From positions 1 through 64,000 of the IMG/VR virus record IMGVR_UViG_3300013121_000029: 64,000 nucleotides of DNA. The stretch is one strand, 5' to 3'. The notes under the pieces are model-generated. The model did not search any database. It was not told where the DNA came from and saw only the letters and a program-made list of their open reading frames with translations. Shown piece after piece: positions 19,847 through 64,000 of this stretch. The stretch is from a virus (lineage: Duplodnaviria; Caudoviricetes). Made by a program: the position numbers and the translations under genes. Numbering within the stretch: the stretch's first letter is position 1; each line of letters begins with the position of its first letter.

Positions 19847-20035
19847 ATGAGCAATTTGTCGAAACACGATAGAGAGTTAGGAGTTCAAGCAGCAGCAAAA
19901 ATATTTAAAGGAACAGGAATAGGGGCAGCTTTGTTTACACGAAATGCAGATGCTATTGCACAATATTTAGCAACTGGGGAACTACCACCTGCCCCTACTA
20001 ACCGAAAACCTGTTGTCGATGAAGACAAGAAATAA
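19847..20035 (+). CDS. hypothetical protein (62 aa)
   Basis: GAGGTG RBS. Confidence 0.6.
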   Translation: MSNLSKHDRELGVQAAAKIFKGTGIGAALFTRNADAIAQYLATGELPPAPTNRKPVVDEDKK

Positions 20036-20044
20036 TAAATAAAG

Positions 20045-20368
20045 AATCAGATGAAGGCAAGACGAAAGTAGGCAAGACGCGAGTTCGAACCTCGCCATCT
20101 CCACCAAGGGATTTTCGTAAAGCCACAGGAACTCAGGACGGACATATATCTATCCTAAACATTATGTAAGAATGTTGAGCTGTGGGGGAAAGTCTTTTAT
20201 GGGGATGAATTGGAATCGATTGGTTACGAGTACTTTAGCTGGATGATCGGTTGGGAACCTTCCGTAATAGAACAAAAACTGTAAATGACGCAAATGAAGC
20301 GTTTAGTCTAGCTGCCTAAAAGGTAAGCATGAGTTTTATTGGTTGAGCTCGGAAACAGAATCAACCAA
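20045..20368 (+). ncRNA. ssrA: circularly permuted (two-piece) tmRNA
   Basis: Acceptor piece ends GACGCGAGTTCGAACCTCGCCATCTCCACCA (20106); coding piece starts GGGGATG (20201), giving a 7-bp acceptor stem with G3:U70; tag ORF 20287-20319 DANEAFSLAA*; outer ends approximate. Confidence 0.92.
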
Positions 20369-20875
20369 TGCTTTTTCAATATATATCCAATATTTTGTAC
20401 CATCGGGTCTGGATCTTTTTCTTCGACGTTTGGCTTTTTCTGATATTTTCTGTCGTACTTCTTCCCGATTCATAACATTGTTGCACCCTGTCCTATTAGG
20501 AAACTTTTTTCCTTTAGTGTTTCCAGGTTTTCCTTTTCTTGCGTTTGAAATTTTTTGACGTTGCTCTATGGACATAGGTTTTCCCTTATTTAAAGCTGTA
20601 AACCCTTTTTTTCGGCCCATTTTTGTATTATAATACCGTGTTCGAAATTCTGTTGGTTTAATTAATGCAATTAATCTTCGTTCTTCACGTATAGCATCTT
20701 GTTTTGTATCATATATTCTTAATATACGTCGTTTAAAATCTTGTGGTCTAAACAACACTTCCCCTGTAAACCACCGTGAAGATGAAATATAACCATCAGA
20801 AAGTTGTCCACTATGAGAACCAATGTAAAACATTTTTCTTACACGATCGAACCAAATATACACGAAATGAATCAT
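20336..20875 (-). CDS. GIY-YIG homing endonuclease (Seg-like, NUMOD3-type tail)
   Basis: FVYIW...FYIGSH.G...DGY..S, E..LI, YYN, GKPMS.EQRQKIS; GGAG before ATG 20875. Confidence 0.85.
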   Translation of the reverse strand: MIHFVYIWFDRVRKMFYIGSHSGQLSDGYISSSRWFTGEVLFRPQDFKRRILRIYDTKQDAIREERRLIALIKPTEFRTRYYNTKMGRKKGFTALNKGKPMSIEQRQKISNARKGKPGNTKGKKFPNRTGCNNVMNREEVRQKISEKAKRRRKRSRPDGTKYWIYIEKALVDSVSELNQ

Positions 20876-52368: not shown

Positions 52369-53103
52369 TCAATTATATTCAGTACCATCTTTACGTGTTA
52401 AATATTCTTCACTTACACTTTTAAGAATTACTCTACCAAGATCATAGTTAGTATATTCTAATTGTGGTGTAATAACAATTCCTTCACGCATGTGTAATTC
52501 TTTTCCTGACACTGTTTCTTTACCAGATGTATATCTTTTAATAAGATCAGGATTCCAAGGACCAAAATATAATACTGGAACACGTGTTAATCCTAATTGT
52601 TTAATAACAATCATCTTTTCGAATTCGTGCAGATATCTACCTTTTTTTGGCATTCCAATATACACATCAAATACTCTGAATTCAGTTCTAGTGAATCCAT
52701 AATCAAACCCATCTTGTACTCCTGGTCCAATTATTTCGCCTACAACATAAATGGGAGTTTCAGGAGTGAGGAACGAATGTTCTCCTGATTCACATAATTG
52801 TTTTAATCGTTGACCAATTGTTAATCCATTAACATCTAATGATTGTCTATATGTTCTAACGTATAGATTTTGGCTATTTGTTTCATTATCTTTAAATGCT
52901 AAACCTTTTGCTCCAAGACCTTTTGAAATAATAATTACCTTACCATCTTCGAATAACTCTGGTTGATCTTGTAATAAAGGATTATAACCTATTTGACAAT
53001 TTGTGCCATGAATTTTTTCTGTTACGGTTACTCTAACATCTTCATTAAATACACTTCCGTTGTAGGTAACATTCTTCGTGTTAATTAAAATTTTCGCTTT
53101 CAT
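52369..53103 (-). CDS. RNA ligase (DRB0094-like), C-terminal nucleotidyltransferase fragment
   Basis: TEKIHGTN motif I, GEIIGPGVQ, FRVFD, REGIV, LKSVS..YL; own promoter at 53133-53161. Confidence 0.88.
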   Translation of the reverse strand: MKAKILINTKNVTYNGSVFNEDVRVTVTEKIHGTNCQIGYNPLLQDQPELFEDGKVIIISKGLGAKGLAFKDNETNSQNLYVRTYRQSLDVNGLTIGQRLKQLCESGEHSFLTPETPIYVVGEIIGPGVQDGFDYGFTRTEFRVFDVYIGMPKKGRYLHEFEKMIVIKQLGLTRVPVLYFGPWNPDLIKRYTSGKETVSGKELHMREGIVITPQLEYTNYDLGRVILKSVSEEYLTRKDGTEYN

Positions 53104-60843: not shown

Positions 60844-61890
60844 TTATTCCTCATCAGAATCGTTTTGATTAAATCCTTGACGAATACCTTTAAGGCCCTT
60901 GTAAGGTACAGATAAAGTCTTCACCACACTTGTCTTATTTCTCATTGCTGGAATAAAATCAAATGCTCTTTCAGAGAAACCTGCTAATTGATACCAACCA
61001 TCAATTTCGCTTACAGGAGTGGAAGCATATGCATTCAAGTTAAATGCTACTTTAACAACATTTGATCCGAAAATCTTTGTTGCTTCACGTTTTGAACTTA
61101 ACTGATTCACCTGCATATCACTAAACAGGATCACAGTATCAGGTTCAAATCCTAATGCTGGTTTAAGATCTAAAGCAGCCTGTAAGTTTGTTCCACCACC
61201 ATATGAACGTGCTTCAATGGCTTCTACGTTAGCAAACATATTTGCCTTTGGATCGACGTTGATGTGTTCAGCACTGTTACTGAAAATCGTAACTTTCACA
61301 TTAGTTGCGTTTTTATTTGCACCAACTAATGCTGCAGAGAAAAGCGCTCCAGTTTGAAGTGGAGTACCTTCCATACTTCCTGATACATCAAGAATAATCC
61401 AAATATTGTTACCAATAGAAGGAATGTTAGTTAAACTTGTGTTACATGCATCACGAACAGCAGCACGTAATCTATCTTTATTAACATTCTTACCTTGTGC
61501 TCCATCGATTGCTGTTAAAGCATTAACGAAACGGAAAGGAAGTTGTTTTGACTTTTTAATTTGGTCTTCATCAACTAACTTACCCATTACCTGCTTGATA
61601 ACAGTATCAGGTACGTTTGCTTCAATGATGTTTCGGAGATTGCGAAGAAGTGCCATATATTGTACACTGTTAGATTCGATCAAATCAGTCCAAACTTCAG
61701 CATTTGTTTTGCGCTCGTTTGCTGGTAATTGACCATTAGCACTCAACACAGTTTCCCATGTTTTTGGGGTTGCTAATTCGTCTTTTATCAATTTAGCAAA
61801 GATTTCACCTTGTTCTGGTGTTTTACCTACAGGGTGAACAATGCGTAATACGTCACGAAGTTTAACTTGTTTTTTGCTGTGCTTTGCCAT
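60844..61890 (-). CDS. Ro60/TROVE protein, C-terminal fragment (TROVE end + VWA)
   Basis: VKLRDVL..VHP, TWET.LS, YMALLRNLRNI, QLPFRF, LDVSGSM, GGT, FSDMQ; AGGAG before ATG 61890. Confidence 0.9.
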   Translation of the reverse strand: MAKHSKKQVKLRDVLRIVHPVGKTPEQGEIFAKLIKDELATPKTWETVLSANGQLPANERKTNAEVWTDLIESNSVQYMALLRNLRNIIEANVPDTVIKQVMGKLVDEDQIKKSKQLPFRFVNALTAIDGAQGKNVNKDRLRAAVRDACNTSLTNIPSIGNNIWIILDVSGSMEGTPLQTGALFSAALVGANKNATNVKVTIFSNSAEHINVDPKANMFANVEAIEARSYGGGTNLQAALDLKPALGFEPDTVILFSDMQVNQLSSKREATKIFGSNVVKVAFNLNAYASTPVSEIDGWYQLAGFSERAFDFIPAMRNKTSVVKTLSVPYKGLKGIRQGFNQNDSDEE

Positions 61891-62476
61891 TTTCTTTCTC
61901 CTGTTTGTGTAGTAATTTATGACATTGTTTACATAATGTAAGTCCATTGTCAATATTAAATCTTTCATCCATATTTGTAGAGAACGGTTTAATGTGGTGA
62001 GCTTCTAGTTCACAATGTGTGATTCCGCACATCCTACAATAATATTGATCGCGTTGGAAAACTAATGTTCTCCAGGTTTTATATTGGTCTGATTGTCTAA
62101 GTAAAATGTTTTCATTACTTAATCCACCTTTCCAATTCCAATGAAGTTCTTTACTCTTTCCTGTATTTTTTAATCGATCATCCGTTCGTTTAGTTAATCC
62201 TTTATTCCAACTTGATTTGCCTTTTCGTGAAATAGAAAGCTTTTGCTTAGTTTCTTCTGAAACAGTTTTTCCTACCCATTTATGCCTATGAAGTCGGGCC
62301 CATGTATTTGCTCTTCCTTTTAAGGAATCTGATACTGTTCGTCTCGGAATTCCATATCGCTTCATCCAATTTAACACTGTTGCTCCTGAGCAATTAAATT
62401 TATCTGCAATTTGTTGTAGTGATAATTTTTGGTTGATGTATAACTCAATTAATAATTCTTGTTCGATTTTTTTCAT
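61862..62476 (-). CDS. HNH homing endonuclease (HTH + NUMOD3 + HNH) inserted in the Ro60 gene
   Basis: LSLQQIA HTH, SEETKQKLS, WNKG, HWNWKGG, RD.Y.C..CG...AHHIKP....NG.TLC..CH. Confidence 0.9.
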   Translation of the reverse strand: MKKIEQELLIELYINQKLSLQQIADKFNCSGATVLNWMKRYGIPRRTVSDSLKGRANTWARLHRHKWVGKTVSEETKQKLSISRKGKSSWNKGLTKRTDDRLKNTGKSKELHWNWKGGLSNENILLRQSDQYKTWRTLVFQRDQYYCRMCGITHCELEAHHIKPFSTNMDERFNIDNGLTLCKQCHKLLHKQEKENGKAQQKTS

Positions 62477-62506
62477 TTTAAATACTTCTAATATTAGAAG
62501 TATTTA

Positions 62507-63121
62507 TTAATTCCATTTAGCAAGAGAGTACTCATTGAATTTTTCGAAAGCATCTGCAACCCCACGACGAATTGCCATAGGTACAGCATTCTTTCCACCA
62601 AAAACAGATAATGCATATGCATATAAATCAGTGATTTGGTCAGCACGTTGAATTACGTCGCAAACAACACGACGCATATCATTATAGGTAAACTGTTCAG
62701 CTTTTGATTGAAAAGTTGCTATTTTAATATTTTCAGCATCGGTTAACTCACGACCATTTGCACTTTGTTTAATAGTAGTAATTTGATCAAGGAACAATTT
62801 ACGATTATCAGAAAGGGCCTTTGCAAATTCAACACAAAGAATGATAGGCATGGTACGAATGTTCATATTCGTACGTGCGTGAACGATTAAATTTGCTAAG
62901 AAGTCGAAATTTTTATTGGCAACAACAGAAGACAAAAGTTCACGCAAACGACGTAAACGATCGTTTGAACTTTCATAGAATTCATCTTTACCGTACAAAG
63001 TCATTGTAACAACTTCGTACAATTGTTGTTCAGCATTTTTAAGGAATTGTGGATTACCGTTGTAAGAATAAGCAACCTTATTCTGTTTTGCGGATTTGTT
63101 TGGCTTATTTAATTTAGACAT
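62507..63121 (-). CDS. Ro60/TROVE protein, N-terminal fragment
   Basis: FYES, AR...N.RT.P, IQRADQ, RRGVADAF.KFNEY.LAKWN; GAGGAG RBS. Confidence 0.88.
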   Translation of the reverse strand: MSKLNKPNKSAKQNKVAYSYNGNPQFLKNAEQQLYEVVTMTLYGKDEFYESSNDRLRRLRELLSSVVANKNFDFLANLIVHARTNMNIRTMPIILCVEFAKALSDNRKLFLDQITTIKQSANGRELTDAENIKIATFQSKAEQFTYNDMRRVVCDVIQRADQITDLYAYALSVFGGKNAVPMAIRRGVADAFEKFNEYSLAKWN

Positions 63122-63151
63122 ATTCGTTTCTCCTCTTAATTTAATCTAAAC

Positions 63152-63180
63152 ATTATACTGTGTTAATTTTAGAAAGTCAA
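63152..63180 (-). promoter_or_regulatory. sigma70-type promoter for Ro60
   Basis: TTGACT-N17-TATAAT on -. Confidence 0.75.
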
Positions 63181-63210
63181 GGATGTTACGAATACCATTA
63201 GAAATATTTT

Positions 63211-63339
63211 AAAGAGACAAGGGCTAAAAGAGAGATTTTCGTGCTCTACCAACTGAGCTATATCTCCAGATGGAGATAGCAGGACTCGAACCTACGGCCA
63301 CGTCATTAACAGTGAAGTAACTCTTTTATACGCAACTTT
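63211..63339 (-). ncRNA. YrlA-like Y RNA with permuted tRNA-like domain
   Basis: GTTGCGTA-TAAAAGAG-TTACTTC, CTGTTAA, T arm GTAGG-TTCGAGT-CCTGC, capped acceptor stem TATCTCC-ATCT-GGAGATA, TA, D arm GCTC-AGTTGGTA-GAGC, CTCTTTTA...CTTGTC; adjacent to Ro60. Confidence 0.9.
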
Positions 63340-63350
63340 AAAAAACTTTA

Positions 63351-63415
63351 TGATGAGTCAAAGTTAGAAAGAGTGTGTTTCACCAAAAGAAGTAACTCTT
63401 TCCTACGCAACATCA
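63351..63415 (-). ncRNA. minimal Y-RNA-like element
   Basis: TGATG-TTGCGTAG-GAAAGAGT-TACTTC...GTG-AAA-CAC-ACTCTTTC-TAACTTTGACT-CATCA. Confidence 0.8.
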
Positions 63416-63434
63416 AAAACTTTTACAAAAATTC

Positions 63435-63520
63435 AGGTGAGTTAAAGTCGTACAGAGGATATTGGCCCGAGGCCAGTCTTTGTTAAGGAAAAGAAGTATC
63501 TCTGTTACTACGCAACACCT
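63435..63520 (-). ncRNA. Y-RNA-like element with GC hairpin insert
   Basis: AGGTG-TTGCGTAG-TAACAGAG-ATACTTC...TGGCC-TCG-GGCCA...CTCTGTA-CGACTTTAACT-CACCT; TAAATA at ~63528-63533 just upstream. Confidence 0.8.
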
Positions 63521-63547
63521 AAAAACCTATTTATGATACGAAATTTC

Positions 63548-63832
63548 AGTCGAGTTCAATTTTGAATTGAGCAGTCACCGGACAGGAGGTTATTAGTCCT
63601 GTTATACGGCCAACATTTACTCTCAAATGTTTTAAGATGAGTGTTTCTGACACCAGCCAACTTAACGTAATTGATACGAATGTTTTAAAGATCTTTTCAA
63701 TTAATAGTTAATTTCATTTGTGATATTTCTAAACATTAACTCTATATCACACAATAAAACTATTTGGTCTTACCTATTAATCGTCCGATCCAGCCGTTTT
63801 AATATGAAGTATCTCACTTCAACGCAACGACT
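63548..63832 (-). ncRNA. long (~285 nt) Y-RNA-like element with multi-hairpin insert
   Basis: AGTCG-TTGCG-TTGAAGTGAG-ATACTTC ... CTCAATTCAA-AATTGAACT-CGACT; several internal inverted repeats; no long ORF. Confidence 0.7.
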
Positions 63833-63861
63833 TCATTTCGAATTCATTAATTTATATATCT

Positions 63862-63890
63862 ATTATATATGAGAGTTTATTAAAATTCAA
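63862..63890 (-). promoter_or_regulatory. sigma70-type promoter for the ncRNA array
   Basis: TTGAAT-N17-TATAAT on -. Confidence 0.7.
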
Positions 63891-64000
63891 CTCTTTTTTT
63901 CATTTTTATTTTCTGGAACCCATTTTTTTACAAGTTCGTCCTTAAGAACATCACTAATTAACGATGTAGCTGTGTTCATTAAGAATGAAATAGGACCACC
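63887..64000 (-). CDS. 3' end of a gene running in from beyond the window
   Basis: Open frame GGPISFLMNTATSLISDVLKDELVKKWVPENKNEKKS*. Confidence 0.45.
   Translation of the reverse strand, partial: GGPISFLMNTATSLISDVLKDELVKKWVPENKNEKKS

What the first reader, a model, noticed from the sequence alone, without database searches (positions are those of the whole stretch)
63548..63832. Unusually long Y-like RNA with a ~230-nt multi-branched insert of unknown class
Seen: between the conserved stem strands lie several inverted repeats (minus strand): ACGGC...GCCGT enclosing AATAGTT/AACTATT with GTGATAT/ATATCAC, AATTGA/TCAATT, TTAAG/CTTAA with GTG/CAC and AACATTT/AAATGTT, followed by ACAGGA/TCCTGT. 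Only very short ORFs are present. It is over twice the length of the tRNA-mimic unit and I do not recognise the fold. Inference: a new effector RNA domain grafted onto a Ro-binding handle.
Basis: partly seen in the sequence, partly recalled or inferred. Interest (0 to 1): 0.75.

Follow-up and report, generated by a model that had tools for sequence, protein, structure and literature searches.

The report
Long Y-like RNA beside phage Ro60
A large uncultured phage encodes, in front of its Ro60 gene, an unusually long (285-nt) Y-type RNA. Its Ro-binding stem encloses a roughly 230-nt folded domain that recurs in four related phages and matches no described RNA family. Its function is still unknown.

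Summary
On the minus strand, 63548-63832 is the first of four tandem Y-like RNA units upstream of a phage Ro60 (TROVE) gene.

- **One RNA.** Its 5' handle strand (GTTGCGT-N6-GAGATACTTC) and a canonical 3' handle strand lie about 250 nt apart. Each pairs best with the other, both within the array and across four phages.
- **Conserved insert.** The 234-nt insert recurs at the same place, as first unit behind a sigma70-like promoter, in three complete units (275-346 nt) and one truncated unit from related metagenomic phages. Plain sequence similarity is weak. The same helices recur in the same order with different sequences: a three-part long hairpin, P5, P6, and P7o/P7 with an AAUAAC loop. Short blocks are also shared.
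- **Unclassified.** No Rfam family, intron, gene or Pfam domain matches it. About 80 ordinary units in these loci are 61-166 nt, and published Y RNAs are 80-130 nt.
- **Reading.** It is a new long variant of phage Y-like RNA: a Ro handle carrying a large conserved cargo domain.
- **Not shown.** Ro binding, transcript ends and the cargo's function were not tested. With only 4-5 members, covariation statistics are thin.

This scan has already noted Ro60/Y-RNA handle arrays in other phage genomes. The long cargo is what is new here.

The parts
63862..63890 (-). Sigma70-like promoter (TTGAAT-17-TATAAT) about 30 nt upstream of the long unit
   Evidence: 10 of 12 matches. The next promoter-like site on this strand lies at 63152-63180, after the fourth unit. 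No promoter- or terminator-like site lies inside the long unit on the minus strand. This is a consensus match only.
63548..63832 (-). The whole long Y-like RNA unit (285 nt), first of four tandem units
63806..63832 (-). 5' handle strand: stem a (63828-63832), invariant UUGCG (63823-63827), stem b (63813-63822), conserved AUACUUC (63806-63812)
   Evidence: The motif is shared by all four window units and by about 80 units in related Ro60 loci.
63572..63805 (-). 234-nt insert (cargo domain), 32% G+C
   Evidence: No Rfam match at E<=10.
63698..63783 (-). P2: long three-part hairpin (P2a 10 bp, an 11-nt bulge GUAAGACCAAA, P2b 10 bp, P2c 8 bp) with a 17-nt U-rich apical loop AGAGUUAAUGUUUAGAA
   Evidence: Pair probabilities are 0.90-0.96. 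The same three helices occur in L047, L053 and L049 with different sequences, and P2b encloses 32-34 nt in all four. The apical loop block GAGTTnnTGTTTAGnAAAT is shared with L047.
63640..63654 (-). P5 hairpin GGUGU/ACACU
   Evidence: P 0.75. The equivalents are GGCAC/GUGCU in L047 and L053 and GUCAC/GUGAC in L049, at the same place just 5' of the UCUUA block.
63612..63641 (-). Conserved block CUCA-UCUUA followed by the P6 hairpin AACAUUU/AAAUGUU with loop GAGAGU
   Evidence: The block is shared with L047, L051 and L053, with a variant in L049. Of P6's 7 pairs, 2 carry compensatory double changes across 5 sequences.
63577..63610 (-). P7o (GCCG/CGGU) and P7 (ACAGGA/UCCUGU) hairpin with loop CUAAUAACC
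   Evidence: All five members have a two-tier hairpin here with different stems and an A-A-U-A-A(C) loop.
63548..63571 (-). 3' handle strand: stem b' (63562-63571), internal loop AAUUGAACU (63553-63561), stem a' (63548-63552)
   Evidence: Duplex with the cognate 5' strand is -11.4 kcal/mol, the best in its row and column.
63210..63520 (-). Three ordinary Y-like units of the same array: 63435-63520 (86 nt), 63351-63415 (65 nt) and 63210-63340 (131 nt, a permuted tRNA mimic)
   Evidence: A partial YrlA match falls in the last unit (37.2 bits, below the 69-bit gathering score).
60844..63121 (-). Ro60/TROVE-vWA gene in two pieces (N piece 62507-63121; C piece within 60844-61968) separated by an HNH endonuclease ORF (61862-62476)
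   Evidence: The C piece has TROVE and VWA_2 matches and is 45-66% identical to full-length 500-530-aa phage Ro60 homologues. The N piece aligns to the N terminus of an unsplit homologue.

Best explanation
63548-63832 (minus strand) encodes a long member of the phage Y-like RNA family. The 5' and 3' ends pair into the conserved handle: stem a, the internal loop UUGCG / UUGNCU, and stem b. By analogy with Y RNAs, the phage Ro60 encoded immediately downstream binds this handle. In place of the hairpin or tRNA-like module carried by ordinary units, the handle encloses a conserved 224-295-nt multi-helix cargo domain. That domain has a long three-part hairpin with a U/pyrimidine-rich apical loop, a variable middle, and a 3' domain of P5, a UCUUA block, P6 and P7. 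The unit is probably transcribed from the sigma70-like promoter at 63862-63890 as the first unit of a polycistronic Y-RNA array and then processed. I infer that the cargo gives Ro60 a further specificity. It could dock a partner, such as a host 3'-5' exoribonuclease (as in Ro-Y RNA-PNPase complexes) or a phage RNA-repair enzyme. It could also present a decoy to host nucleases. What the data show: the pairing of the handle halves, the conservation of the cargo helices, and the lack of any known family. What is inferred: Ro binding, a single transcript, and cargo function.
For: - **Locus.** The window opens a 197.6-kb phage record. The unit heads an array of four units with one 5' motif, directly upstream of a TROVE/vWA gene.
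- **Handle pairing.** Cognate 5'/3' halves give the lowest duplex energy in every row and column, both within the window array and among the long units of four phages. The stems therefore covary across 250-320 nt.
- **Relatives.** Long units of 346, 316 and 275 nt occur in L047, L053 and L049, plus a truncated one in L051. Their Ro60 proteins are 59-66% identical to the window's. Each complete unit is the first behind a TTGAC-type promoter; L047 and L053 have a tRNA in between.
- **Structure.** Independent partition-function folds recover the same helices in the same order. Every listed helix (P2a/b/c, P5, P6, P7o, P7) is fully paired in every member, with different sequences and similar enclosed lengths. 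P6 has compensatory changes in 2 of 7 pairs.
- **Shared blocks are rare elsewhere.** The CTCA-TCTTA-TTGAG-GTAAA pattern gave 0 hits in IMG/VR, 48 in 241 million metagenome records and 18 in 596 Gb of genomes. None of these lay next to a handle.
- **Size.** About 80 ordinary units in the same loci are 61-166 nt.
- **Published precedent.** Y RNAs tether Ro60 to PNPase (PMC4201824). A phage Ro60 with two Y-like RNAs forms a RYPER-like complex with host PNPase (PMC12135203). TROVE proteins in jumbo phages are read as RNA-repair platforms (PMC7824862).
- **RNA ligase linkage.** RNA ligase PF09414 genes lie directly after Ro60 in L047, L051, L053 and L055, within two genes in L049 and L050, and further downstream in L108 and L113. 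The window's own copy is at 52417-53031.
Against: - Only four complete members and one partial member exist, so no statistical covariation test is possible.
- Plain sequence searches do not link the window's insert to its relatives: nhmmer found nothing, and blastn gave no hit to L047, L053 or L049 at E<=10. Homology therefore rests on position, the handle, short shared blocks and matching helices that I partly picked by eye.
- Thermodynamic z-scores are modest, from -2.26 to -1.38.
- In the single-sequence folds of L047 and L049 the handle is replaced by local alternatives.
- MAFFT plus RNAalifold on whole domains recovers only P6.
- The Ro60 gene in this phage is split by an HNH ORF, so the activity of its protein partner is unproven.
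- Nothing indicates which partner, if any, the cargo binds.
Confidence: 0.6

Rival explanations
1. The insert is an autonomous functional RNA: a ribozyme, a ligand- or protein-binding RNA, or a mimic of a host RNA other than tRNA. On this reading it uses the Y handle only as a clamp for processing and for Ro-dependent protection from exonucleases. Ro would stabilise it rather than be directed by it.
For: The cargo is far larger and more elaborate than any Y RNA module. It has its own conserved unpaired blocks: UCUUA, GAGNGU and AAUAAC loops, and a UUUAAAA loop. In L047, L051 and L053 a second promoter-like TTGACT..TATAAT sequence, seen by eye, follows the long unit, so it may be its own transcription unit.
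Against: No known ribozyme or riboswitch model matches. The handle of the long units is as well conserved as in ordinary units, including the invariant UUGCG. The data cannot separate this reading from the best explanation, and the two overlap.
Confidence: 0.2
2. The two handle halves are not one RNA. The 5' half would be an orphan or decaying unit (it can form a local hairpin UGAAGU/ACUUCA), the interval would hold unrelated small RNAs or nothing functional, and the 3' half would be a remnant.
For: A local hairpin at 63805-63821 competes with stem b. My permissive rule for 3' strands also finds chance partners at 340-650 nt for motif hits inside coding regions. The region is AT-rich with many alternative inverted repeats.
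Against: The same long arrangement recurs in four phages with covarying handle halves and matching internal helices. No canonical 3' strand lies closer to the 5' half. No promoter- or terminator-like site lies inside the unit.
Confidence: 0.08
3. The insert is a decayed gene, a mobile insertion or a small group I-type intron that landed in a Y unit.
For: The phage carries homing-endonuclease traffic, such as the HNH ORF splitting Ro60. The insert length of 224-295 nt lies in the range of small group I introns (my own knowledge). One assembly called an 85-aa gene over part of the L049 unit.
Against: No intron or other Rfam model matches at E<=10 or E<=1. No ORF of 40 aa or more lies on the RNA strand. 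The two overlapping frames have no Pfam match and are not shared between phages. Length differences between members are not in multiples of three, and helices are kept by paired changes. No insert-free version of this unit was seen.
Confidence: 0.03

Closest known systems
Bacterial and phage Y RNAs of the YrlA/YrlB/Yrn1 type bound by Ro60 (Rsr); Rfam RF02553; Chen et al. 2014 (PMC4201824)
   Same: It is encoded directly next to a Ro60 orthologue, several units per locus. The 5' and 3' ends form a long stem with a conserved bulged motif, and a variable module sits at the far end. The neighbouring unit in the same array is a tRNA mimic with a partial YrlA match.
   Different: It is 285 nt (275-346 in relatives), against 80-130 nt for characterised Y RNAs. 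This unit has no T-arm or tRNA-like module. The handle motif is UUGCG with UUGNCU opposite, not GNCGAAN0-1G. RF02553 does not match this unit at all, and matches the tRNA-mimic unit only below its gathering score.
Thermus phage phiLo Ro60 with Yrl1 and Yrl2 and host PNPase (PMC12135203)
   Same: A phage-encoded Ro60 with Y-like RNAs just upstream of the gene. It provides experimental precedent that such RNAs bind phage Ro60 and bridge to a host exoribonuclease.
   Different: phiLo has two short RNAs found through a CGAA motif, with no large structured cargo. GenBank phage Ro60 proteins are at most about 33% identical to this clade.
Ro60/handle-RNA arrays noted earlier by this scan in other phage genomes (e1-5367098, e1-5403464, e1-5635292, e1-5679549)
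   Same: Tandem units share one handle and carry different cargos (hairpins or tRNA mimics) in front of a Ro60-like gene.
   Different: Those notes describe short hairpin or tRNA-like cargos. Here one unit carries a roughly 230-nt multi-helix cargo with its own conserved blocks. I did not examine those loci myself.
Metazoan Y RNAs (hY1, hY3 and others)
   Same: From memory and untested here: the 3' strand UUGACU and the 5' GAGUUAYCUC-like stretch of vertebrate Y RNAs resemble the UUUGACU and GAGUUACUUC of this handle.
   Different: Those are about 100 nt with a pyrimidine-rich loop, made by Pol III. This resemblance is a lead only.

Membership tests
Y RNA / YrlA-type Ro60-associated RNA | Encoded adjacent to a Ro60 (TROVE) gene | tested here: met
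   The TROVE/vWA gene lies 90-700 nt downstream on the same strand. The same holds in all relatives.
Y RNA / YrlA-type Ro60-associated RNA | 5' and 3' ends form a long stem carrying a conserved Ro-binding motif (GNCGAAN0-1G in YrlA; GGUCCGA in animals) | tested here: inconclusive
   The terminal stem with a conserved asymmetric internal loop is present and covaries. The motif itself is UUGCG / UUGNCU, which is related to but not the same as the published motifs (PMC4201824).
Y RNA / YrlA-type Ro60-associated RNA | Size of about 80-130 nt | tested here: not met
   285 nt here and 275-346 nt in relatives. The published range is from PMC4201824.
Y RNA / YrlA-type Ro60-associated RNA | tRNA-like module (T arm, D arm) in at least one RNA per locus | tested here: not met
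   This unit does not meet it: no tRNA or YrlA match falls in 63548-63832 at E<=10. The locus does meet it, through the fourth unit at 63210-63340.
Y RNA / YrlA-type Ro60-associated RNA | Match to Rfam RF02553 at the gathering score | tested here: not met
   No match in this unit. The tRNA-mimic unit scores 37.2 bits against a 69-bit threshold.
Y RNA / YrlA-type Ro60-associated RNA | Physical binding to Ro60 and Ro-dependent accumulation | not testable with these tools
   This needs RIP, EMSA or genetics.
Phage handle-RNA array of this Ro60 clade (uncurated) | 5' GTTGCGT-N6-7-GAG-N-TACTTC, plus a 3' strand of stem b', a TTGNCT-type loop and stem a' | tested here: met
Group I intron (RF00028) or other self-splicing or ribozyme families | Match to the family's covariance model (conserved catalytic core) | tested here: not met
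   cmscan against all 4227 Rfam families found nothing in the long unit of the window at E<=10, nor in those of L047, L053 and L049 at E<=1.

The most novel reading that the evidence does not exclude
The 224-295-nt cargo is a new class of large structured RNA with a biochemical role of its own. It could be a ribozyme, a docking platform for a specific host or phage enzyme, or a mimic of a host RNA other than tRNA that draws defence nucleases. Phage Ro60 would carry or protect it. That would extend the Ro/Y system from 'tRNA mimics and small loops' to a general chassis for delivering complex RNA domains.
Probability: 0.25. Interest if true: 0.8.

Novelty: new variant of a known kind. Interest (0 to 1): 0.55.

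Why it matters
Y RNAs are understood as small adaptors (80-130 nt) whose variable module decides what Ro60 does. Only two kinds of module are understood in bacteria: PNPase-binding loops and tRNA mimics. A conserved cargo two to three times longer than any described Y RNA, held on the same handle, suggests the Ro chassis can carry much more complex RNA domains. It also gives a concrete object for asking what phage Ro60 systems do during infection: RNA repair, takeover of host exonucleases, or decoys against anticodon nucleases. Separately, it adds a candidate new structured RNA motif of about 230-300 nt that is absent from Rfam.

Tried and rejected
- **Rfam.** The gathering-score scan of the window found only a permuted tmRNA at 20046-20319. 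Permissive scans of 63100-64000 and of six related loci found nothing in any long unit.
- **Search for more members.**
  - The block-B pattern gave 0 hits in IMG/VR.
  - It gave 48 and 18 hits in metagenome and GTDB genome contigs, all chance and none beside a handle.
  - Two apical-loop patterns in IMG/VR gave only chance hits.
  - GenBank phages gave no DNA match, and their Ro60 proteins are at most about 33% identical.
  - An IMG/VR Ro60 profile scan returned 10 loci, none with a long unit.
  - The handle motif scan of IMG/VR returned 43 loci, whose true units are all short.
- **Sequence-only homology.** nhmmer and blastn do not link the window's insert to its relatives.
- **Automatic alignment and consensus folding** of the whole or half domains recovered only P6, because MAFFT misaligns the variable parts.
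- **Helices considered and dropped.**
  - A pseudoknot CUCA/UGAG across P6 is invariant in four members but not kept in L049.
  - A P7-loop pairing with GGGUUAU is seen only in L053.
- **Coding or decayed-gene reading:** rejected.
- **Idea not pursued.** The P3 loop UUUAAAA is complementary to a UUUUAA anticodon loop of tRNA-Lys type. In an AT-rich genome this is too likely to be chance.

Full report
**Context.** The window is the first 64 kb of a 197.6-kb IMG/VR phage record. On the minus strand a Ro60-type gene is present in two pieces. The N piece is 62507-63121 and the C piece, with TROVE and vWA matches, lies within 60844-61968. An HNH endonuclease ORF (61862-62476) separates them. The C piece is 45-66% identical to full-length 500-530-aa Ro60 homologues from metagenomic phages. 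Upstream of the gene lie four tandem units. Each begins with GTTGCGT-N6-7-GAG-N-TACTTC; there are four matches in the window, all here, against none expected in shuffles. The unit nearest the gene is a permuted tRNA mimic with a partial YrlA match (37 bits, below the 69-bit gathering score). The finding concerns the unit furthest from the gene, 63548-63832.

**Do the two halves belong together?** In ordinary units the 3' strand reads stem b', then a TTTGACT-type loop, then stem a'. It pairs with the 5' strand to leave the internal loop UUGCG / UUGNCU. For the long unit the only strand with this layout lies about 250 nt downstream (63548-63571). Within the window array, each 5' strand gives its lowest duplex energy with its own 3' strand, in every row and column. 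For the long unit this is -11.4 kcal/mol against -9.5 to -6.8 along its row and -5.4 to -4.7 down its column. The same holds for the long units of four different phages, whose stems differ in sequence. This covariation across 250-320 nt is the strongest evidence that the halves pair in one RNA.

**The insert.** The unit folds into a multibranched structure of -68 kcal/mol with z = -2.26. The region is AT-rich with many competing repeats, so a single-sequence fold is weak evidence on its own.

**Relatives.** I fetched the contigs that encode the closest Ro60 homologues. Long first units turned up in three of them:
- L047 2259-2604 (346 nt; Ro60 66% identical)
- L053 1777-2092 (316 nt)
- L049 1893-2167 (275 nt)

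A further unit is cut off by the contig end in L051 1-99. Each complete unit is the first behind a TTGAC..TATAAT promoter-like sequence. In L047 and L053 a tRNA lies between promoter and unit; I read its anticodon loop as GAA (Phe). About 80 other distinct units in these and other Ro60 loci are 61-166 nt. The apparent units longer than 340 nt that my permissive rule reports are chance motif hits in coding DNA.

**Conservation of structure.** Independent partition-function folds of the four RNAs recover the same helices in the same order. A coordinate-based table shows every listed helix fully paired in every member, with different sequences:
- P2a: CGAUUAAUAG/CUAUUAAUUG, GCAGG/CCUGU, GGUAAG/CUUACU, AACGUUCU/AGAGCGUU.
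- P2b: encloses 32-34 nt in all four.
- P2c: UGUGAUAU/AUAUCACA, UGGUGA/UCACCG, UGGUGUU/AACACCG, CCAUUU/AAAUGG. It is capped by a 13-19-nt U/pyrimidine-rich loop.
- P5: GGUGU/ACACU, GGCAC/GUGCU, GUCAC/GUGAC.
- P6: AACAUUU/AAAUGUU, UCUUUUG/UAAAAGA, UCGUUUG/UAAACGA, CCCUUU/AAAGGG, AUUCUUU/AAAGGAU. Two of its 7 pairs show compensatory changes in RNAalifold.
- P7o/P7: a two-tier hairpin with an A-A-U-A-A(C) loop.

Between P2 and P5 lies a hairpin with a UUUAAAA-type loop, followed by a variable number of extra hairpins.

**How strong is the homology?** Plain similarity is weak. nhmmer and blastn do not link the window's insert to the relatives, and global identity is 49-63% of aligned columns. The family is instead connected by short blocks that are very rare elsewhere:
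- CTCA(n)TCTTA-n-TTGAGnGTAAA is shared by the window, L047, L051 and L053. It gave 0 hits in IMG/VR, 48 in 241 million metagenome records and 18 in 596 Gb of genomes, none beside a handle.
- GAGTTnnTGTTTAGnAAAT sits in the P2 apex of the window and L047, against 26 chance hits in IMG/VR.
- TTAGGTTTCGTTnCCnAA sits in the P2 apex of L053 and L049, against 5 chance hits.
- L047 and L053 share extended blocks.

With 4-5 members no formal covariation statistic is possible, and part of the helix assignment was made by eye.

**Not a known family.** No Rfam model matches any long unit. No ORF of 40 aa or more lies on the RNA strand, and the overlapping frames have no Pfam match. This argues against a decayed gene, a group I intron or a known ribozyme or riboswitch.

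**Transcription context.** A sigma70-like promoter (TTGAAT-17-TATAAT, 63862-63890) lies about 30 nt upstream. The next one on this strand (63152-63180) follows the fourth unit, and nothing promoter- or terminator-like lies inside the unit. This fits a single precursor but is only a consensus match.

**Likely mechanism.** Y RNAs bind Ro60 through their terminal stem and use the distal module to tether partners. They are 80-130 nt, and at least one per bacterial locus mimics tRNA (PMC4201824). A Thermus phage Ro60 binds two upstream Y-like RNAs and forms a RYPER-like complex with host PNPase (PMC12135203). TROVE proteins of jumbo phages have been read as RNA-repair platforms working alongside RNA ligases (PMC7824862). 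In this clade an RNA ligase (PF09414) gene follows Ro60 directly in L047, L051, L053 and L055, within two genes in L049 and L050, and further downstream in L108 and L113. The window has one at 52417-53031. I therefore read the long unit as a Ro60 handle carrying a large conserved cargo that gives the same Ro60 an additional specificity. The U-rich apex of P2 is a plausible single-stranded site for an S1/KH-type exonuclease domain. That step, like Ro binding itself, is inference.

**Comparison and novelty.** It works like a Y RNA, but it fails two descriptive criteria of the described family (size, tRNA-like module) and the Rfam model. It is best filed as a new long variant within an uncurated phage handle-RNA family. 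This scan has already noted such handle arrays in other phage genomes. The long conserved cargo is the new element here.

Noticed in passing
window 60844-63121 (-); L059 2850-5062: The Ro60 gene is split into a 204-aa N piece and a ~350-aa C piece by a 204-aa HNH/NUMOD3 endonuclease ORF. A relative (L059, protein P0014) is split at a similar place by a different 199-aa ORF with a weak NinG match. Homing-endonuclease invasion of this gene therefore seems to recur.
   Followed up: partly
window 20014-20410 (+): A permuted (two-piece) tmRNA gene: Rfam tmRNA_permuted at 85 bits, and ARAGORN tag peptide DANEAFSLAA.
   Followed up: no
L047 2172-2246; L053 1692-1766: A tRNA (anticodon loop read by eye as GAA, Phe; CCA encoded) lies between the promoter and the long Y unit, 13-14 nt from the handle. 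tRNA 3' processing may therefore create the long RNA's 5' end in those phages. The window lacks this tRNA.
   Followed up: partly
L056 2250-2400 and 2525-2650; L109 2540-2660; L111 2270-2480: Other conserved-looking, ORF-free structured elements of 110-200 nt sit between Y units in more distant Ro60 loci. They share GCGAGTAT(A/T)AAC-type blocks and have no Rfam match at E<=1 in L056 and L111. They may be further unclassified RNAs of these arrays.
   Followed up: no
L111 2966-2992; L109 ~2955-2990; L056 ~2958-2990; L113 ~2968-2990: Just before the Ro60 ribosome-binding site, several relatives have GTTGC(G/A)..N..TAACTC. This juxtaposes the two internal-loop strands of the handle (UUGCG and UAACUC). 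It could be a mini-handle in the Ro60 mRNA leader for autoregulation. I did not see it in the window.
   Followed up: no
window 63351-63415 (-); L051 170-244; L053 2164-2238; L055 2873-2937: The short unit with loop CUUUUGGUGAAA(A)CAC has clear orthologues in several relatives. Each unit type in the array (short hairpin, tRNA mimic, long cargo) therefore seems to be conserved separately.
   Followed up: partly
L049 2297-2420: A ~120-nt G+C-richer element with several hairpins lies between the first short unit and the first tRNA-mimic unit. It has no handle motif and no Rfam match.
   Followed up: no
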